A stretch of DNA of 64,000 nucleotides from a bacterium (GTDB taxonomy: Bacteria; Patescibacteriota; Gracilibacteria; Peribacterales; Peribacteraceae), in assembly GCA_027623015.1 (NCBI GenBank), contig JAQBVR010000001.1, forward strand, positions 14,773 through 78,772. The letters run 5' to 3'. Made by a program: the position numbers and the translations under genes. The notes beneath the pieces were generated by a model that saw nothing but the letters and a program-made list of their open reading frames with translations, did no database searches and had not been told where the DNA came from. Position 1 is the stretch's first letter. The number at the start of each line of letters is the position of its first letter. Below, piece after piece: positions 30,500 through 43,322 of this stretch.

Positions 30500-31786
30500 A
30501 TGCTGTATAATGCAGTCAGAGAAAGTGCATTTATTCAGTCTATATGGTACAATAGTATGATTTCTGACTCACAACACAACCAACGGGGAGGATACGATGA
30601 TGAAGGTAATATCATATTGCCAGAGACAGGCACGCCTGGATCTGCGGGTACATTTCGTAAGCCTCTATGGACAAATATCGATGAGCAGAATGATCTGAAT
30701 GAAGCTACATTTCAAAAAGTTGAGGGTAGTAGAATCTCTCGTAATAAGACAGTTGAGGATCCTCCAACCAAGATATGGAAAGATGCTCGAAAAAAGATTG
30801 GTGGTGTAACTCAAGACTTTTTTAAAGAAGGTGCAAAGCAATACAAGTGGAGTATAAAAGCAGCGCTCAAAGGAATGAGGTCATCTCTAGACTCTGGCCA
30901 ATATGGCATTGATCACATATGGGGATTTCTTGCACAACCAGTATGGGTCCTCAATAGAAAGAGACATAAGGCTAAGCAATATAGTCGGTTTTCCCTTTTC
31001 CTTTTAGACACAGTTCGATTTGGTGGAACCTTTGCTATTCTTTTTGTTACCTTGTTTGTATCATTAAATTACCAAAGCTTCTGGAAGATAAGTCAGTCGT
31101 ATATAAATCCCATCCGGAGAGCACAAAGCTCGATCATCACCAATGCCAATACAGACAATATTCTTGCTCAGAAACTTCTTCGTAGCCCCTCTCTCGCAAC
31201 TGCTGGTGGATCAAAAGGTGATCTACTTAGCTACCTTCCAGAGGTTGGACCACCTGAAAATAGAATCATCATTCCTCGTTTGGACCTTAATATTCCTTTG
31301 GTTACACCTTCTTATAAGGCTCTACTTTCTGAGGATTGGGACCAACTAGAAGAAGACATTCAAGATGCTCTACAGATGGGCGTAGTGCATTACCCCGGCA
31401 CTGCTAGACCAGGGCAAGCAGGAAACTTCTTCGTCACCGGTCATAGCTCATATTACCCTTGGGCAGATGGTAAATATAAAACAGTATTTGCTCGCCTTCA
31501 AGACCTAGATGTTGGAGATGAGTATTGGGTGTACTACGGCGGTGACAAATACCGATATATTGTACGAACGAAAAAAGAAGTAAAGCCAACAAATGTAGAT
31601 GTATTAGATCAGCCAGTTTCTAAACGCATGGCCACTCTTATGACCTGCAGTCCAGTAGGAACGACTTTACGACGACTGATTTTAAGTTCAGAAGAGGTAG
31701 ATCCAGATACAGGAATCGCAATGCATGTTGGGGAGCAACACAAAAGAACTGAACCAAAGATTAATGTTGGGGCACTGCCAATCTAG
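30500..31786 (+). CDS. Sortase family transpeptidase with long N-terminal region and TM anchor
   Basis: Catalytic His context FFVTGHSSY. Catalytic Cys motif ATLMTCSP (TLxTC). TM helix FGGTFAILFVTLFVSL. The start is uncertain (Met1 at 30500 or Met20 at 30557). Confidence 0.8.
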   Translation: MLYNAVRESAFIQSIWYNSMISDSQHNQRGGYDDEGNIILPETGTPGSAGTFRKPLWTNIDEQNDLNEATFQKVEGSRISRNKTVEDPPTKIWKDARKKIGGVTQDFFKEGAKQYKWSIKAALKGMRSSLDSGQYGIDHIWGFLAQPVWVLNRKRHKAKQYSRFSLFLLDTVRFGGTFAILFVTLFVSLNYQSFWKISQSYINPIRRAQSSIITNANTDNILAQKLLRSPSLATAGGSKGDLLSYLPEVGPPENRIIIPRLDLNIPLVTPSYKALLSEDWDQLEEDIQDALQMGVVHYPGTARPGQAGNFFVTGHSSYYPWADGKYKTVFARLQDLDVGDEYWVYYGGDKYRYIVRTKKEVKPTNVDVLDQPVSKRMATLMTCSPVGTTLRRLILSSEEVDPDTGIAMHVGEQHKRTEPKINVGALPI

Positions 31787-37523: not shown

Positions 37524-37916
37524 CTACGTATTCTCGATCTGCTTTAGCAAGTCATCTGTCATCTCTGATTCGCCAACTTCAGCCTCAGCTTCTTGTGCCT
37601 GTCTTGCTGTACGACGTTGCAAGCGCTCCATACCAGTCTTCTTCACAAGCTCCTCTTGCCCTATCTCCTCTATCTCTTTACTGTATTTGTTGTCTATTGC
37701 TGCAAGCTGCTGCTTCTCGTTTGATAAGATACCACGGAGATTCTCTACTTGGTCTGGTGTCATAATTGGAAGAATGTTTAACCAATACTGACGCTCTTCA
37801 TCGTTCATACTTTCTGACCCCAAAATAAGCTCTAAGAGGTCGGGATACTTTGTACGAACGTCATCAGATATTACTAGTCCACTTTGGGCCATTGTAGTAG
37901 CAGGGTCATCAGCCAT
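37524..37916 (-). CDS. Hypothetical acidic, coiled-coil-rich protein
   Basis: 130-aa ORF with protein-like composition (NDEERQYWLNILPIMTPDQVENLRGIL). The antisense plus-strand ORFs are S/L/C-rich shadows. Confidence 0.55.
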   Translation of the reverse strand: MADDPATTMAQSGLVISDDVRTKYPDLLELILGSESMNDEERQYWLNILPIMTPDQVENLRGILSNEKQQLAAIDNKYSKEIEEIGQEELVKKTGMERLQRRTARQAQEAEAEVGESEMTDDLLKQIENT

Positions 37917-37949
37917 GTATTGATAGAATACGAGGAGTAAGTAAAACTA

Positions 37950-38462
37950 TCAAGCAACCTTGATCACTTCATACTTCTGTATGCCACTGGGTGTATCGAC
38001 AGTAAGTATATCTCCTTTTTTGCTTCCAAGTAGTGCTCTTCCAATTGGAGATTCGTTGCTGAGTTTTTCATTCATAGGATCCGCCTCTGTTGTTCCAACA
38101 ATTGTGAAATTTTGTGGCTCCTCGTTATCTGTTTTGTTACGGACTGTAACCGTCGATCCGACGTTTGCTTCTATGCCACCAGATACCTTCTTGTCAGATA
38201 TGATCTTGGCGTTCTTGACCTTCATCTCCAGTTCAATGATACGACCCTCAACGAATGCTTGTTCATTTTTTGCCTCTTCGTACTCAGAGTTTTCTGAAAG
38301 GTCTCCGTACGAAATAGCTTCTTTCAATCGCTCAGCTAACTCCAAACGTCGAGTTTTCTTTAAGAAGTCGAGTTCTTCTTTTAACTTTTTAAGACCTTCT
38401 TTGGTAAGAAGCGTGTGGTCCTGATCATCAAAATCTCCTGCTGCTCCCGTTGTAGTTGTCAT
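37950..38462 (-). CDS. greA: Transcription elongation factor GreA
   Basis: LTKEGLKKLKEELDFLKKTRRLELAERLKEAISYGDLSENSEYEEAKNEQAFVEGRIIELE, plus a C-terminal FKBP-like domain. Confidence 0.9.
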   Translation of the reverse strand: MTTTTGAAGDFDDQDHTLLTKEGLKKLKEELDFLKKTRRLELAERLKEAISYGDLSENSEYEEAKNEQAFVEGRIIELEMKVKNAKIISDKKVSGGIEANVGSTVTVRNKTDNEEPQNFTIVGTTEADPMNEKLSNESPIGRALLGSKKGDILTVDTPSGIQKYEVIKVA

Positions 38463-39561: not shown

Positions 39562-39784
39562 AATCTAATCCATTGTTTCTAGTTGCAAGTTGCTAGTCCT
39601 GAAATACTTTTTTAGATTGACATTTAATGCATTTGTATCTTATGAGTCATTTTATTAGCGATATTGCCTCAGAACGAGTAAGAAGTAGCAAATTATACTG
39701 CCAACATATCTACATAAATACTATATGATGATACTATTGCATTGAGTCAATGTTCAGCGCATTGAGAAATTACGTAAATTGGCT

Positions 39785-39790
39785 TATAAT
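39785..39790 (+). promoter_or_regulatory. -10 box TATAAT, 8 nt upstream of ATG 39799 (leaderless-type promoter)
   Basis: The sequence reads GGCT TATAAT AGATTGAT ATG. Confidence 0.5.
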
Positions 39791-39798
39791 AGATTGAT

Positions 39799-40128
39799 AT
39801 GTACAAAAACATCCATTCCATTTTCTCCCAAAGAAACCTTCAGGTGTTCGCACTTAGTGCGTTCGCTATAGCAGGTTCTTTTTCTCTGGGGATACAATCG
39901 GCAGGTGAGGTACGACCTATCTCACTTATAGAAGCCGGAAGTATTCAGATCGCAGGAGACATAGATGGGAATGGCGAAGTTGACCTTCGAGATGTCATAA
40001 GCATCTTGGAGATTGTTCAAGGATATAGCGTTGCTACTCCTGAGCAAATGCGCGCTGACCCAAACAGGGACGGCAAGCTAACTGTCGATGATGCTATTCG
40101 CATTCTATCTCAACTTTCATTGCGGTAA
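39799..40128 (+). CDS. Small secreted dockerin-only protein
   Basis: Signal/TM sequence (VFALSAFAIAGSFSLGIQSAG). It is followed by two dockerin Ca-binding repeats: GDIDGNGEVDLRDVISILEIVQG and ADPNRDGKLTVDDAIRILSQL. Confidence 0.8.
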   Translation: MYKNIHSIFSQRNLQVFALSAFAIAGSFSLGIQSAGEVRPISLIEAGSIQIAGDIDGNGEVDLRDVISILEIVQGYSVATPEQMRADPNRDGKLTVDDAIRILSQLSLR

Positions 40129-40145
40129 TTACTGATCTTCCTTTT

Positions 40146-41567
40146 ATGAACTTTTCTGAGTTTCACACTCGGCTACGCATTAACAGCATATTGACTCTAT
40201 CGAGTATGCTTGTCGTATTATTTATGCCTCTACAAGCACAAGCTGCAACTCAAGACACAAGAATCTACGTTCGTCCACACTGTGAAGGTGAATTTGAAAA
40301 TGAGGTAAGTCTCTTTGGAGAAGTGCCTGATTATGGTGGACTCAATCTTTTTGAAGAGCGATGTAGTAACTTCTCTGTAGAAAATCCACAAACGCTCATG
40401 ACACCAAAGTTGCTCGTTGGTGAAGAGCTCAACATCGATATAGTCGTTCGGAACACGAGTGGCCAGGCAGTAAATCATGTTCGGTCATGGCTTTCGTATG
40501 ACCCAAATGTTCTTGAAGGAGTATCTGTTGATGTTCACGCAAACTTTCCTGCAGTCACTCCTGGTGAAAGCAACTTCGATACGACCAATGGTTATGTGAT
40601 GGTAGAAGCAAGTAACGATGCATCGGATGCGAACAAGCAGCTCTTTGTACGAGTTGCTCAAGTAAAGCTAAAGGTGAAACAAGCTCCACCATCTGGGACA
40701 TTTATTAGCTTCTATGATGTTCAGCGTGGTGGTCATACCACTGTAGACACAACAGAAAATAGTGCAGATGAAAACATTCTTGGCGAGGAACCAGGTGGAC
40801 TGCATGTTGTTCTGGATGCTGGTGAAGGCGATCGTACAGATACGACTGGAACAGCAGATACATCTGATGACACTGAAAGTAATGGAGGCGCAGCTACGCC
40901 AAACCCCGGAACAGCAGGAGGGCCAGCACCTACTCCAGCATTTGGGGCACCACCGTTACCAAATGGTGGTGGAGACACTTCTGGAGAAAACCCATTTGCA
41001 AATCAAGATAATGCATTTGGTACATCTGGTGAAGGACTCACCGCAAATACGAGTGACCAAGGCACGCCAGACCGAACAGCATTCTCGCTACTCCAAGTGC
41101 GAAATGTACGCACAACCACAGAAGGAACATCTATCTACCTCGCATGGGATCAATTGAATTCTTCTACACTTAAAGCATATAACGTTTACTATGGAACTAC
41201 GACTGGGCGTTACATACAGCGCAAGACTGTCGACAAAGAGATGAAAAGTGTGATATTGCGATCTTTACCTATCGATGCAAAGTATTTTATGGCTGTACGA
41301 GCAGTAAGCATTGCAGATGAAGAAAGTGCATTTAGCCAAGAGGTAGCCATAGTTGTCGGCGATCCTAGCTCATCTACTGCACTTCTCATCGAAGGTGACC
41401 CTGGAAGTGACATCGTCACTAGCCCAGTAAGTGGATCTGTAAACGGTCAGATCCCCGGGGGAGAAACTGGGGTGCCATCTAGTCTCGCACTCTTCCTTCT
41501 CATTTCTGCAATCCTTGGAACACTTCTTGCTTCTCGTAGACAGCTCATCGTCTCTTCAACTCGATAG
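40146..41567 (+). CDS. Surface protein: signal peptide, cohesin-like domain, G/P/T-rich linker, FN3 domain, C-terminal sorting signal
   Basis: The cohesin-like core LNIDIVVRNTSGQAVNHVRSWLSYDPNVLEGVSV...LFVRVAQVKLKVKQAPPSGTFISF resembles clostridial cohesins (YDPNVLE block). FN3: TSIYLAWDQLNSSTLKAYNVYYGTTTGRY. C-terminus: IPGGETG-VPSSLALFLLISAILGTLLA-SRRQ. Confidence 0.72.
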   Translation: MNFSEFHTRLRINSILTLSSMLVVLFMPLQAQAATQDTRIYVRPHCEGEFENEVSLFGEVPDYGGLNLFEERCSNFSVENPQTLMTPKLLVGEELNIDIVVRNTSGQAVNHVRSWLSYDPNVLEGVSVDVHANFPAVTPGESNFDTTNGYVMVEASNDASDANKQLFVRVAQVKLKVKQAPPSGTFISFYDVQRGGHTTVDTTENSADENILGEEPGGLHVVLDAGEGDRTDTTGTADTSDDTESNGGAATPNPGTAGGPAPTPAFGAPPLPNGGGDTSGENPFANQDNAFGTSGEGLTANTSDQGTPDRTAFSLLQVRNVRTTTEGTSIYLAWDQLNSSTLKAYNVYYGTTTGRYIQRKTVDKEMKSVILRSLPIDAKYFMAVRAVSIADEESAFSQEVAIVVGDPSSSTALLIEGDPGSDIVTSPVSGSVNGQIPGGETGVPSSLALFLLISAILGTLLASRRQLIVSSTR

Positions 41568-41569
41568 CC

Positions 41570-42514
41570 ATGAGTTCGCCCATCCATCCAGACTGGCAGA
41601 ACACCGATGCAGAGACTGAAGAAGTGCCCGTTCACGACGTAAATGCACCTGCACCAACTGAGATGCATACCATCTCCAGGCGACCAGCAGCTATAGCAGG
41701 GATCTTACTTGTTGTCGGTTCCGCATCTTTGTTTATGCACGGTGTGGATACGCTCACAGGTCAGCTTACAGAACCTATTTCCGTCATATTAGCAGATACT
41801 GGTATAGACCCAGTTGAGATCACCGTTCCAGCAGGAGAAGAAGTGAGATGGACGAATCAACAGGAAATCCCACAGTACTTAATCTCCGATACACTGTGTA
41901 GCCCAAGTGCAGATGAATGCATGAGCACATCAACGATGTTTGAAGGAGATGAGATCAGCTATACTATACCTGCAGATGTTCCAGCTGGCTCATACGAATA
42001 CTTCTCTCCTACAGATCCAAGCCTTACAGGAACAATCATAGTCACCAAAGGATCTAGTAAAACTGTAACACCAGCTAAGAATGGAGATACTCCAGCAGCT
42101 GGAACTACTGAACCAAGTCCAGTGGATTCTGTTGCAAGCGCACTGACATCTGCCCAGCAGCGACTACTAGACTCTATACAAAAACAGCTACAGATTGAAA
42201 AAGACACCAATAAGACAAAAACAATACATCGAAATACTGATACATCTATCCCTACAGCAAACGCACCGATCAATGGTATAGCGCAAAACCCATACACCAT
42301 CGGAGGTATTGCAAATGTACCTATCGCCAATGCTGGTAATGGACAGGGATTTGTACCGCCTACACAAGAGAGACCTCAGACATTTGGAAATAATCAAATC
42401 CAGAAGCCATACAGGCAGGCGGATACAGGGGCAGAAGTTTGGGCAGTACTTGTACTTGCTATTGCTGGGCTATGGCTTGTCACCAGAGGATACTTCGTTG
42501 GATACACAGAGTAG
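41570..42514 (+). CDS. Surface protein with amicyanin-like cupredoxin domain lacking copper ligands; C-terminal sorting signal
   Basis: ITVPAGEEVRWTNQQEIPQYL...GSYEYFSPTDPSLTGTIIV aligns with the amicyanin pattern V-x-W-x-N...P-H-N...Y-x-Y-x-C-x-x-H-x-x-M-x-G-x-V-x-V, with H, C, H, M replaced by Q, S, D, L. C-terminus: RQADTG-AEVWAVLVLAIAGLWLV-TRG. Confidence 0.55.
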   Translation: MSSPIHPDWQNTDAETEEVPVHDVNAPAPTEMHTISRRPAAIAGILLVVGSASLFMHGVDTLTGQLTEPISVILADTGIDPVEITVPAGEEVRWTNQQEIPQYLISDTLCSPSADECMSTSTMFEGDEISYTIPADVPAGSYEYFSPTDPSLTGTIIVTKGSSKTVTPAKNGDTPAAGTTEPSPVDSVASALTSAQQRLLDSIQKQLQIEKDTNKTKTIHRNTDTSIPTANAPINGIAQNPYTIGGIANVPIANAGNGQGFVPPTQERPQTFGNNQIQKPYRQADTGAEVWAVLVLAIAGLWLVTRGYFVGYTE

Positions 42515-42517
42515 AAA

Positions 42518-42526
42518 TGATAGTAT
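42518..42526 (+). promoter_or_regulatory. Extended -10 box TGATAGTAT, 6 nt upstream of ATG 42533
   Basis: The sequence reads AAA TGATAGTAT GAAGAC ATG. Confidence 0.45.
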
Positions 42527-42532
42527 GAAGAC

Positions 42533-43282
42533 ATGACCCCAAAGCGAGATCTTCAAAAAGCACTGGAAGAACATCAGAGAAGCGACCGCCATGGCACACG
42601 CCTTGGTAGCTTTATTCAAGACGTCGTCTACGGTGGTAACGATGGCATCGTCACAACCTTTGCTGTCGTCGCAGGAACAGTGGGTGCAGATCTTCCTCGG
42701 TATGTCATCATCATCCTTGGTATGGCAAATCTCTTTGCCGATGGAAGCTCTATGGCAACAGGTGCTTACCTCTCACTACGATCGGAGTTTGACCAGTATA
42801 GGAGACTGCGCAAAGAGGAGAACCAAGAAATAGACGAAGACCCAGAGATAGAGGCAGAAGAAATACGTTCTCATTTCAAAGGCAAAGGCATCGAAGGAAA
42901 AGACCTAAGTGAACTGACAAGGATCCTCACATCCAACCGTGAAGTCTGGATCGATACGATGATGCATACAGAGCATGGCATGACAGAGGATTCCTTCTCG
43001 CAACCTATGCTTCATGGATTTATGACATTCATCTCGTTTGTCATCTTTGGCTCTCTTCCTCTGCTCCCCTACATCTTCGATGTTGACCCAGCCAATAGAT
43101 TTCGCATTGCTATATATGCAGCCTTCGGTGCACTAGCAGCACTTGGCCTCACACGTAGCATCGTCACCAAAGAACGCTTGATCCGAGGACCACTGGAGAT
43201 CATCAGCGTCGGTGCGATAGGCGCGATAGTTGCGTACGGTATTGGTGTATTACTCAAGAGCACCGTCGGGCTTGCTATCTGA
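42533..43282 (+). CDS. VIT1/CCC1-family iron/manganese transporter
   Basis: [17 protein letters not shown] signature, a central acidic cytoplasmic region, and C-terminal TM helices. Confidence 0.82.
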
Positions 43283-43322
43283 TGGTTAAGTATTTTTAAT
43301 AGAATGCTAGTTATAAGAGTGA

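What the first reader, a model, noticed from the sequence alone, without database searches (positions are those of the whole stretch)
39799..41567. Minimal cohesin-dockerin pair: a dockerin-only secreted protein encoded directly upstream of a wall-anchored cohesin-FN3 protein
Gene 39799..40128 encodes only a signal/anchor sequence plus one complete dockerin, with two DxDxDG-type Ca loops (GDIDGNGEVDLRDV and ADPNRDGKLTVDDA). It has no catalytic or binding module. Eighteen nucleotides downstream, 40146..41567 encodes a signal peptide and a cohesin-like beta-sandwich. The cohesin-like domain has a YDPNVLE block and a KLKVKQAPPSGTFISF strand, as in clostridial scaffoldins. A G/P/T-rich linker, an FN3 domain and a sorting signal follow. 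Cohesin-dockerin systems are best known from cellulosomes. Here no glycoside hydrolase is nearby and the dockerin carries no cargo. The pair may therefore act as a surface plug/socket for another purpose, such as capping, cell-cell or host attachment, or recruitment of dockerin proteins encoded elsewhere.
Basis: partly seen in the sequence, partly recalled or inferred. Interest (0 to 1): 0.6.

Follow-up and report, generated by a model that had tools for sequence, protein, structure and literature searches.

The report
Cargo-less dockerin beside anchored cohesin protein
An uncultured tiny-genome bacterium (Peribacteraceae, candidate phyla radiation) encodes side by side its only "plug" (dockerin, on a 109-residue protein with no cargo) and its only "socket" (cohesin, on a surface-anchored stalk), an enzyme-free, stripped-down relative of cellulosome anchoring whose binding is inferred, not shown.

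Summary
Gene 39799-40128 encodes a signal or anchor helix plus one complete two-repeat dockerin and nothing else. Gene 40146-41567 encodes a signal peptide, a cohesin, a disordered G/P/T-rich linker, an FN3 domain and a sortase-like C-terminal signal. The window's own proteins score just below Pfam's cut-offs. AlphaFold2 models with Foldseek, family-wide Pfam hits and full-length homology to relatives above the cut-offs settle all three domain assignments.

These are the only dockerin and the only cohesin in a 99%-complete 1.1-Mb genome. The pair lies in the same order and strand in 37 of 40 sampled genomes of the same family. The mini-dockerin evolves as slowly as GreA.

In sister families the orthologous cohesin-FN3 gene instead follows a small lipoprotein cohesin. 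Large proteins with Ig-like or EGF-like domains and a C-terminal dockerin lie 4-10 kb upstream. The cargo-less plug therefore looks like a lineage-specific reduction of a surface-display cassette.

Binding, signal-peptide cleavage and sortase anchoring are all inferred. No paper on this system was found. This scan has already reported related cohesin-dockerin cassettes on other CPR DNA.

Verdict: a new variant of a known kind, of moderate interest.

The parts
39762..39790 (+). Promoter-like site TTGAGA-17-TATAAT. It ends 9 nt before the ATG at 39799, so the transcript may be leaderless or nearly so.
   Evidence: Consensus scan, 11 of 12 matches. This is a pattern match only.
39799..40128 (+). 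Mini-dockerin gene (109 aa): N-terminal signal or anchor helix, a conserved short peptide and one dockerin, with no other module.
   Evidence: ORF. 18 close homologues and about 70 clusters at 50% identity. AF2 and Foldseek.
39799..39906 (+). aa 1-36: a basic n-region, a 19-residue hydrophobic helix and the conserved motif SFxxGxxTAG (here SFSLGIQSAG). This is a probable Sec signal peptide with a type I signal peptidase (SPase I) site at G36|E37. Alternatively it is an uncleaved anchor.
   Evidence: AF2 predicts a helix at aa 3-33. F28 and G31 are invariant in 54 sequences. Cleavage is inferred, not tested.
39907..39954 (+). aa 37-52: conserved pre-dockerin peptide (EVRPISLIEAGSIQIA). Function unknown.
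   Evidence: Alignments A1 and A5. AF2 pLDDT is below 50 at aa 42-48.
39955..40119 (+). aa 53-107: dockerin with two Ca-binding loops (D54..D65 and D87..D98), each followed by a helix. The second repeat is the more conserved.
40146..41567 (+). Cohesin-FN3 surface protein gene (473 aa).
   Evidence: ORF. At least 154 homologues. The start at 40146 is supported by the homologue alignment. The database gene call starts 20 codons later (P0001, 453 aa).
40146..40244 (+). aa 1-33: signal peptide ending AQA|A.
   Evidence: Sequence. AF2 predicts a helix at aa 3-25. Cleavage is inferred.
40245..40373 (+). aa 34-76: N-terminal extension specific to the family, with the invariant RPHC...C cysteine pair. 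It adds a strand (aa 38-44) to the cohesin sandwich.
   Evidence: C46 and C73 are invariant. AF2. The extension is absent from sister-family orthologues, whose HMM matches start at about position 54.
40374..40820 (+). aa 77-225: cohesin beta-sandwich.
   Evidence: AF2 pLDDT 95-98. Foldseek hits to cohesins. Pfam Cohesin in 44 of 67 family members.
40821..41075 (+). aa 226-310: disordered G/P/T/D-rich linker. Many homologues carry Cys-rich GxxCxxxxxCxSGxC repeats here, which this protein lacks.
   Evidence: pLDDT below 50 at aa 229-305. Alignment.
41076..41360 (+). aa 311-405: FN3 domain.
   Evidence: The family profile hits fibronectin FN3 (1fnf E 1.7e-7). AF2 and Foldseek. Pfam fn3 in 63 of 67 members.
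41454..41567 (+). aa 437-473: sortase-like C-terminal signal, PGGETG + TM helix + SRRQ tail (family consensus VPGETG...ASRRQ).
   Evidence: P437, G439, G442 and Q466 are invariant. The same layout occurs on about 8 ORFs of the genome. Processing is not tested.
41570..42514 (+). Third gene (314 aa), starting 2 nt after the cohesin gene stop. It has an N-terminal TM helix, a cupredoxin-like domain, a low-complexity region and a QADTG + TM C-terminal signal. It keeps this position in relatives.
   Evidence: Cupredoxin_1 at 25.7 bits against a cut-off of 27. Synteny.
30500..31786 (+). Sortase gene (428 aa), one of three in the genome and a candidate processing enzyme for the xTG signals.
   Evidence: Pfam Sortase 81 bits. 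Genome census.
43262..43286 (+). First terminator-like hairpin downstream, after VIT1. The four co-oriented genes from 39799 to 43282 may form one transcription unit.
   Evidence: Consensus scan. This is a pattern match only.

Best explanation
This is a non-cellulosomal, type-I-like cohesin-dockerin pair that forms a 1:1 complex on the cell surface of a Peribacteraceae (CPR) bacterium.

The cohesin-FN3 protein is exported by Sec. It is held at the envelope by its C-terminal xTG/TM/basic signal, probably processed by one of the three sortases. Its cohesin sits at the far end of a roughly 85-residue flexible linker plus an FN3 stalk. The 109-residue protein is exported and probably cleaved after the conserved TAG/SAG motif (G36|E37). 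Its roughly 73-residue mature form, a short conserved peptide plus one dockerin, then plugs into that cohesin in a Ca2+-dependent way.

The arrangement is a reduced descendant of a surface-display cassette still present in sister families. There, a lipoprotein cohesin and the orthologous cohesin-FN3 lie next to large dockerin-bearing proteins with Ig-like or EGF-like domains. In this lineage the cargo has been lost. The dockerin itself, possibly with its conserved N-terminal peptide, is then the functional partner. It may act as a cap, as a stabiliser, or as part of the surface tip.

Shown: domain identities, uniqueness in the genome, conserved adjacency, purifying selection, and the cargo-bearing version in relatives. 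Inferred: binding, cleavage, sortase anchoring, the direction of evolution, and the role of the complex.
For: Domain identities:
- Dockerin.
- Cohesin and FN3.
- The protein is homologous end to end (E 4e-28) to a sister-family orthologue that passes Pfam's cut-offs (Cohesin 44.6 bits, fn3 28.1 bits).
- Both Ca loops are intact and their ligand positions are invariant (D54, D65, D87, D91, D98).

One plug and one socket:
- Only one Dockerin_1 hit and one real cohesin occur in the 1.10-Mb, 99%-complete genome.

Linkage:
- The two genes are 17 nt apart, and the third gene starts 2 nt after the second.
- In 301 genomes of the class, the cohesin occurs in 40 of 40 genomes of the window's family and the mini-dockerin in 37 of 40. 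In all 37 the mini-dockerin lies upstream on the same contig and strand, within about 300 nt.
- The flanking order carB-greA-holA ... VIT1 is the same in the fetched loci.

Selection:
- The mini-dockerin's non-synonymous divergence (pN 0.19-0.33) is below that of cohesin-FN3 (0.32-0.45) and holA (0.33-0.46) and similar to greA, in 9 pairwise comparisons.

Relatives with cargo:
- In at least 20 genomes of at least 4 other families, a dockerin sits at the C-terminus of a large protein. The two ORFs read in full are 823 and 1304 aa. The enclosing frames are mostly 560-2659 aa, and a few are shorter or interrupted by a stop.
- This protein lies 4-10 kb upstream of a small-cohesin plus cohesin-FN3 pair on the same strand.
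- The mini-dockerin is 38% identical over 58 aa to such a dockerin.

Anchoring:
- There are three sortase genes and no exosortase.
- About 8 ORFs carry the same xTG/TM/basic layout.
- Peribacteria have peptidoglycan synthesis genes and a sortase A (PMC4736985).
Against: - No complex could be modelled or measured.
- The cohesin-FN3 gene persists without a working partner. One family genome has no mini-dockerin gene (G221). Another has an 89-aa copy with degenerate Ca loops (G026). So the cohesin protein has a role that does not need the mini-dockerin.
- The window's own Pfam scores are below the cut-offs. The cohesin-only sequence profile finds solved cohesins only weakly (E 0.07-0.2).
- The hydrophobic helix is 19 residues long. 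It could be an uncleaved anchor, which would place the dockerin at the membrane, far from a cohesin displayed at the tip of a stalk.
- PGETG is not a proven sortase motif.
Confidence: 0.45

Rival explanations
1. The binding pair is the same, but the N-terminal helix of the small protein is not cleaved. The dockerin then stays on the membrane as a type II anchor. It would tether the wall-linked or membrane-linked cohesin-FN3 protein back to the membrane in cis, or engage the cohesin of a neighbouring cell in trans as kin cell-cell adhesion.
For: The hydrophobic stretch is 19 residues long and a basic n-region precedes it. AF2 predicts one long helix at aa 3-33. F28 and G31 inside or at the end of the helix are invariant across 54 sequences. 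That is more conservation than a disposable signal peptide usually shows. In sister families the gene at this position encodes a membrane-tethered (lipoprotein) module.
Against: The conserved (S/T)-A-G followed by E/D, with a helix-breaking Gly at -6, fits a signal peptidase I site. Long signal peptides are normal here: the cohesin protein's own is 33 residues. Only about 15 residues separate the helix from the dockerin, whereas the cohesin sits at the distal end of a long stalk.
Confidence: 0.2
2. The two proteins do not bind each other. The small protein is a Ca2+-binding, EF-hand-like envelope protein with another partner or role. The cohesin-FN3 protein acts alone as an adhesin or spacer. 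Adjacency would then reflect co-regulation of envelope genes.
For: The cohesin-FN3 gene is retained where the mini-dockerin is lost or degenerate (G221 and G026). EF-hand models score as well as Dockerin_1 on the window's protein. The whole neighbourhood is syntenic, housekeeping genes included, so adjacency alone is weak evidence.
Against: The fold matches dockerins specifically (top 29 PDB hits). These are the only dockerin and only cohesin of the genome. In relatives the same cohesin genes are linked to dockerin-bearing proteins. The mini-dockerin and the 'second cohesin plus large dockerin protein' layout exclude each other in the 40 family genomes sampled.
Confidence: 0.2
3. The cohesin is a socket for dockerins made by other cells, such as a host, prey or neighbouring strains. 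The mini-dockerin is a competitor or cap that regulates access to it.
For: The genome has no other dockerin. CPR bacteria are thought to live attached to other cells, and Peribacteria invest in large extracellular proteins proposed to mediate attachment (PMC4736985). The cohesin is displayed distally on a flexible stalk.
Against: There is no evidence for any foreign partner. Cohesin-dockerin specificity is usually narrow and co-evolved within one genome (established knowledge of cellulosomes). The mini-dockerin is as conserved as a housekeeping protein, which fits a cognate partner.
Confidence: 0.1
4. The small gene is a decaying remnant of the C-terminus of a once-large dockerin-bearing protein and has no function.
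For: Sister lineages carry large dockerin proteins at the locus. One relative shows a degenerate 89-aa copy.
Against: The ORF is intact, with invariant Ca ligands, in 37 of 40 family genomes. About 70 clusters at 50% identity keep the same 100-120 aa architecture. Its pN is lower than that of holA and cohesin-FN3 in all 9 comparisons. It has its own conserved N-terminal export sequence.
Confidence: 0.03

Closest known systems
Ruminococcus flavefaciens ScaE anchoring scaffoldin with the ScaB and CttA dockerins (PMC2930009)
   Same: An exported protein carries a single cohesin and a C-terminal sortase-type signal. It serves as the cell-surface socket for a dockerin encoded in the same gene cluster.
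   Different: ScaE has a canonical LPXTG, whereas here the motif is (V/I)PGETG. ScaE has no FN3 stalk. Its partners are X-dockerins on a large scaffoldin and on a cellulose-binding protein, within a system of about 200 dockerins. Here the only partner is a 109-aa protein with no cargo and no X module, and no glycoside hydrolases are involved.
Cohesin-FN3 double module of Clostridium perfringens GH84C (PDB 2w1n), which pairs with dockerins of other secreted perfringens enzymes
   Same: It is the best structural match (Foldseek E 1.3e-12). It has the same cohesin-then-FN3 order and a non-cellulosomal use of the cohesin-dockerin pair.
   Different: There the modules are part of a large glycoside hydrolase, and they join secreted enzymes into complexes (from my own knowledge of that literature). 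Here the protein has no enzyme domain, the two modules are separated by about 85 disordered residues, and it is anchored to the cell.
[quoted passage not shown] 2009, cited in PMC2930009), for example the Archaeoglobus fulgidus pair used in display work (PMC12484212)
   Same: A few copies of cohesin and dockerin occur in a non-cellulolytic organism, and their function is unknown.
   Different: Here the pair is a strictly 1:1, syntenic feature conserved across a family of a CPR lineage, with a cargo-less dockerin. I could not read Peer et al. because it is not held, so I cannot say whether such a case is listed there.
Cargo-bearing cohesin-dockerin cassette of sister families in the same class (loci L012, L013, L016). 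It matches this scan's earlier report on other Peregrinibacteria DNA (e1-3070131).
   Same: It has an orthologous cohesin-FN3 protein with an xTG/TM/basic signal (E 4e-28), a homologous dockerin and no enzymes.
   Different: Those cassettes add a small lipoprotein cohesin, and they place the dockerin at the C-terminus of proteins of about 800-1300 aa with Ig-like or EGF-like domains. In the window's family the small cohesin and the large proteins are gone from the locus, and a 109-aa dockerin-only protein takes the upstream slot.

Membership tests
Dockerin (Pfam PF00404, type I-like) | Two tandem repeats of about 22 residues, each an EF-hand-like Ca2+ loop (D/N at positions 1, 3, 5, 9 and 12) followed by a helix. 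| tested here: met
   Loop 1 is D54-D65 and loop 2 is D87-D98, and their ligand positions are invariant in 18 homologues. The family profile hits solved dockerins at E 6.9e-7. The top 29 Foldseek hits are dockerins, with rmsd as low as 1.3 A. 30 of 54 members match Pfam. The window's own score of 20.7 bits is below the 22.9 cut-off.
Cohesin (Pfam PF00963) | Nine-stranded jelly-roll beta-sandwich of about 140 residues with cohesin sequence signatures. | tested here: met
   AF2 pLDDT 95-98. Foldseek hits 2w1n, 4ums, 5lxv_A, 4uyq_A (TM 0.72), 3ul4_A and 1g1k_A. 44 of 67 homologues match Pfam. An orthologue scores 44.6 bits, above the cut-off. The window's own score of 19.2 bits is below 24.1.
Functional cohesin-dockerin pair | Specific, Ca2+-dependent, high-affinity binding of the dockerin helices to the 8-3-6-5 face of the cohesin. 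| not testable with these tools
   No complex prediction or binding assay was possible. Indirect support comes from the 1:1 census, from adjacency in 37 of 37 cases and from linkage to dockerin proteins in relatives.
Cellulosome | Dockerin-bearing glycoside hydrolases or other CAZymes assembled on a multi-cohesin scaffoldin, usually with a CBM. | tested here: not met
   There is a single dockerin with no catalytic module and a single cohesin. No GH or CBM domain appears in the cluster or its relatives.
Sortase-anchored surface protein (ScaE-like) | C-terminal LPXTG pentapeptide, a hydrophobic helix and a basic tail, with a sortase in the genome. | tested here: inconclusive
   The tripartite layout is present and conserved, but the pentapeptide is GGETG here (family consensus VPGETG), not LPXTG. 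No NCBIfam sorting-signal model matches. There are three sortase genes and no exosortase. About 8 ORFs share the xTG layout. Cleavage is untested.
Fibronectin type III domain (PF00041) | Seven-stranded beta-sandwich of about 90 residues with the conserved W and Y core. | tested here: met
   The profile hits 1fnf at E 1.7e-7. AF2 pLDDT is above 92. Foldseek FN3 hits reach TM up to 0.84. 63 of 67 homologues match Pfam.

The most novel reading that the evidence does not exclude
The cargo-less mini-dockerin is not a leftover. It is the working end or the regulator of a minimal attachment device. Plugged into the stalked cohesin, the dockerin and its conserved N-terminal peptide would form the tip that contacts a host or partner cell, or would cap the socket against foreign dockerins. 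Peribacteraceae would then have turned the cellulosome plug-and-socket into a two-protein organelle for the episymbiotic lifestyle.
Probability: 0.2. Interest if true: 0.75.

Novelty: new variant of a known kind. Interest (0 to 1): 0.48.

Why it matters
Cohesin-dockerin pairs are textbook parts of cellulosomes and are widely used in protein engineering. Their roles outside fibre degradation are largely unknown.

Here a 1.1-Mb genome that has shed most functions keeps exactly one plug and one socket. It keeps them adjacent, and it conserves the plug as tightly as a transcription factor. That argues for a core envelope function in a lineage thought to depend on contact with other cells.

The contrast between the cargo-bearing cassette in sister families and the cargo-less one here gives a natural experiment on what the interaction itself contributes.

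The pair is also a very small, self-contained candidate affinity pair: a dockerin of about 73 residues and a cohesin of about 150 residues. Recombinant proteins would suffice to test it.

Tried and rejected
- Complex prediction. It was not possible. I did not try to build an artificial fusion.
- Sequence-only test of the cohesin against solved structures. It gave only weak hits (E 0.07-0.2). The whole-protein profile found only FN3. The cohesin call therefore rests on the fold search, on the family-wide Pfam hits and on orthologues above the cut-off.
- Second cohesin in the genome (contig C12). Rejected: it is a DUF11 domain protein with an MPATG signal.
- Exosortase, PEP-CTERM-type or PGF-CTERM-type sorting of VPGETG. 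Rejected: there is no exosortase hit and no NCBIfam sorting-domain hit.
- Nucleotide-level constraint on the mini-dockerin gene, such as an embedded RNA. I considered this because synonymous divergence from the closest relative is only 0.23, against 0.59-0.74 in neighbouring genes. Rejected as a general feature: in 9 more distant pairs the synonymous sites are as saturated as in the neighbours. A recent local recombination is more likely.
- Homology of the third gene between families. None was detected by BLASTP.
- Literature. No paper linking Peregrinibacteria, Peribacteria or other CPR bacteria to this cohesin-dockerin system turned up. Peer et al. 2009 is not held.
Full report
**What is there.**
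The + strand carries three tightly packed genes:
- 39799-40128, 109 aa.
- 40146-41567, 473 aa, starting 17 nt after the first gene ends.
- 41570-42514, 314 aa, starting 2 nt after the second gene's stop.

A VIT1 transporter gene follows on the same strand. A promoter-like site (TTGAGA-17-TATAAT, 11 of 12 matches) ends 9 nt before the first ATG. No terminator-like hairpin appears until 43262-43286. These are pattern matches only. Upstream lie holA, greA and carB. The genome holding the window is 1.10 Mb in 46 contigs and 99% complete. Source names of homologues place it in Candidatus Peregrinibacteria/Peribacteraceae, a CPR lineage.

**The small protein.**
It has three parts:
- A basic n-region and a 19-residue hydrophobic helix ending in SFSLGIQSAG.
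- A conserved 16-residue peptide.
- One dockerin with two Ca loops, GDIDGNGEVDLRD and DPNRDGKLTVDD, each followed by a helix.

Pfam Dockerin_1 scores 20.7 bits, just under the 22.9 cut-off, but covers positions 1-52 of 57. A profile of 18 homologues hits solved dockerins (2y3n_B E 6.9e-7, 4uyp_B E 2.8e-6). The AF2 model has pLDDT 83-90 over the dockerin. Its top 29 PDB matches are all dockerins, at rmsd mostly 1.3-3.5 A over about 60 residues. There is no other domain, so the dockerin carries no cargo.

The family is large. Of the best 150 cluster representatives at 50% identity, about 70 are single-domain proteins of 75-146 aa matching the profile end to end. 30 of 54 of them match Pfam Dockerin_1. 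Across 54 sequences F28, G31, D65 and D98 are invariant, and the motif SFxxGxxTAG(E/D)V is conserved. The (S/T)-A-G followed by an acidic residue, with Gly at -6, fits a signal peptidase I site. I therefore favour cleavage at G36|E37 at about 60:40. An uncleaved anchor is not excluded.

**The large protein.**
The AF2 model, built from 67 sequences, gives these segments:
- A signal helix.
- An extra strand at aa 38-44.
- A beta-sandwich at aa 77-225 with pLDDT 95-98.
- A disordered stretch at aa 229-305.
- A second sandwich at aa 311-405.
- A C-terminal helix at aa 445-468.

The best Foldseek hit is 2w1n, the cohesin-FN3 double module of C. perfringens GH84C (E 1.3e-12). Single cohesins follow: 4ums, 5lxv_A, 4uyq_A at TM 0.72, 3ul4_A and 1g1k_A. 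Many FN3 domains also match.

The window's own Pfam Cohesin score is 19.2 bits against a cut-off of 24.1. A cohesin-only sequence profile finds solved cohesins only weakly. However, 44 of 67 homologues match Pfam Cohesin and 63 of 67 match fn3. The protein also aligns end to end (E 4e-28) with a sister-family orthologue that passes both cut-offs (44.6 and 28.1 bits). The cohesin and FN3 assignments are therefore safe.

Two features are specific to the family. One is an N-terminal RPHC...C extension with two invariant cysteines. The other is a conserved C-terminal VPGETG-TM-ASRRQ signal.

**Anchoring.**
The C-terminal signal has the layout of a sortase signal but not the LPXTG pentapeptide. No NCBIfam sorting model matches. 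The genome has three sortase genes, one of them in the window at 30500-31786, and no exosortase. A crude whole-genome scan finds about eight ORFs with xTG + TM + basic tails. They include the third gene of this cluster (QADTG) and several with (D/Q/S)TGPAALFA...RRKK. The published Peribacteria genomes have full peptidoglycan synthesis and a sortase A (PMC4736985). Wall anchoring is plausible but untested.

**Census and conservation.**
In the window's own genome there is one dockerin (Pfam and family profile) and one cohesin. The second weak hit is a DUF11 protein.

In 301 genomes sampled from the class:
- The cohesin domain occurs in 100 genomes, including 40 of 40 in the window's family, mostly as a single copy.
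- The mini-dockerin occurs in 37 of those 40.
- In all 37 it lies just upstream of the cohesin on the same contig and strand.

The three exceptions are informative:
- G221 has no gene between holA and cohesin-FN3.
- G026 has an 89-aa copy with a decayed dockerin.
- G257 has a large Ig-like protein, then a small lipoprotein cohesin, then cohesin-FN3.

Non-synonymous divergence of the mini-dockerin (pN 0.19-0.33) is lower than that of cohesin-FN3 and holA and close to greA in nine pairwise comparisons. The gene is therefore under strong purifying selection.

**The larger cassette in relatives.**
In other families the cohesin profile hits two adjacent ORFs, with frames of about 200 aa and about 360 aa. 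The mini-dockerin profile hits the C-terminus of a large protein 4-10 kb upstream on the same strand. This holds in at least 20 genomes of at least four families. The enclosing frames are mostly 560-2659 aa, and a few are shorter or interrupted by a stop. Two loci read in full (L012, L013) encode, in order:
- A YidC-like protein.
- A protein of 823 aa (L012) or 1304 aa (L013) with a C-terminal dockerin, which scores 31.3 bits, above the cut-off, in L013. The L012 protein has EGF-like hits and the L013 protein a Big_2 hit.
- A protein of 1325-1713 aa with Ig-like domains.
- A 194-199-aa cohesin. The L012 copy has a lipobox (LGGC).
- The cohesin-FN3 orthologue, which in L012 carries GPLTG-TM-RKKK.
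- A low-complexity membrane protein.

Many families share this layout, as does one member of the window's family. Parsimony therefore suggests it is ancestral and the mini-dockerin layout is derived. No rooted tree was built, so this remains an inference. In the sample, the two layouts exclude each other within the window's family.

**Mechanism.**
The best reading is a 1:1 surface complex. The stalked, anchored cohesin is the socket and the exported mini-dockerin is the plug. The arrangement is analogous to the sortase-anchored single-cohesin ScaE of R. flavefaciens with its dockerin partners (PMC2930009), but it has no enzymes and no cargo.

The second dockerin repeat (ADPNxDGxLTVDDAIRIL) is more conserved than the first. 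This hints at a single binding mode through helix 3.

In the alignment to the C. cellulolyticum cohesin 1g1k, the invariant R113 and the nearly invariant W115 fall on strand 3. They align with the residues of the 'CN/CD' motif. From my memory of the type I complexes, that motif faces the dockerin. This is a lead, not a test.

What the complex does is unknown. It could be a cap, a stabiliser, or a tip for contact with other cells. Loss of the plug in two relatives shows that the cohesin-FN3 protein also works without it.

**Comparison and novelty.**
Non-cellulosomal cohesins and dockerins are known to be widespread (Peer et al. 2009, cited in PMC2930009). Cohesin-FN3 tandems and sortase-anchored single cohesins are also known. 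I found no paper describing this system in Peregrinibacteria or other CPR bacteria. NCBI names the homologues 'hypothetical' or 'fibronectin type III domain-containing protein'.

This scan has already reported related cohesin-dockerin cassettes on other CPR DNA. One is a Peregrinibacteria six-gene set with giant dockerin-bearing proteins (e1-3070131). That set matches the sister-family layout I found independently. What is new here is the cargo-less, family-conserved mini-dockerin and the strictly 1:1 system. I rate it a new variant of a known kind.

**Limits.**
- Binding, cleavage, sortase processing and expression are untested.
- No complex could be modelled.
- The genome samples are related to one another, so the counts describe distribution and are not independent events.

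Noticed in passing
window 39786-40145, compared with L019 3501-3830: Against the closest relative, the mini-dockerin gene is 83-93% identical in DNA, while neighbouring genes are 70-85% identical. Its synonymous divergence is pS 0.23, against 0.59-0.74 in the neighbours. More distant pairs show no such deficit. A recent local recombination or gene conversion limited to this roughly 350-bp gene is more likely than a nucleotide-level constraint.
   Followed up: partly
window 41570-42514: The third gene of the cluster encodes a membrane protein with a cupredoxin-like domain just below Pfam's cut-off (25.7 against 27 bits). By eye, the usual Cys/His/Met copper ligands are replaced (YFSPTDPSL instead of Y-C-x-P-H...M). 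It ends in QADTG + TM. It is conserved at this position within the family but has no detectable homologue at that position in the sister-family cassette.
   Followed up: partly
whole genome G000, for example C1:14098-14778(-), C21:21-1493(+), C26:15573-17222(-), C40:17855-18100(+), C12:31231-32385(-): About eight ORFs end in xTG + hydrophobic helix + basic tail, with variable residues before TG (VGDTG, ISQTG, LAQTG, LSSTG, MPATG, GGETG, QADTG). This suggests sortases with relaxed or unusual motif specificity in this lineage. The genome has three sortase genes.
   Followed up: partly
window 40146-40205: The public gene call for the cohesin protein (P0001, 453 aa) starts 20 codons downstream of the ATG at 40146. 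It thereby removes the basic n-region of the signal peptide. The alignment of homologues supports the longer form.
   Followed up: yes
window 40821-41075, and homologues P0005, P0030, P0117, P0120: Most homologues carry one to three Cys-rich repeats (GxxCxxxxxCxSGxC, some hitting DUF4215) in the linker between cohesin and FN3. The window's protein has lost them and has only a G/P/T/D-rich disordered linker.
   Followed up: no
L017 2837-3106 (-) and L018 2667-2715: In two family members the plug is decaying or gone. G026 has an 89-aa copy that keeps the export helix and the TAGE motif but has degenerate Ca loops. G221 has only 50 nt between holA and the cohesin-FN3 gene.
   Followed up: yes
window 39762-39799: A near-consensus promoter-like site ends 9 nt before the start codon, leaving no room for a Shine-Dalgarno sequence. 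The mini-dockerin mRNA may be leaderless.
   Followed up: no
window 37524-38462, compared with L004-L006: The greA gene and the adjacent 130-aa gene are on the minus strand in the window and in L019/L020, but on the plus strand in L004-L006. This small inversion lies next to the otherwise conserved carB...holA-dockerin-cohesin block.
   Followed up: no
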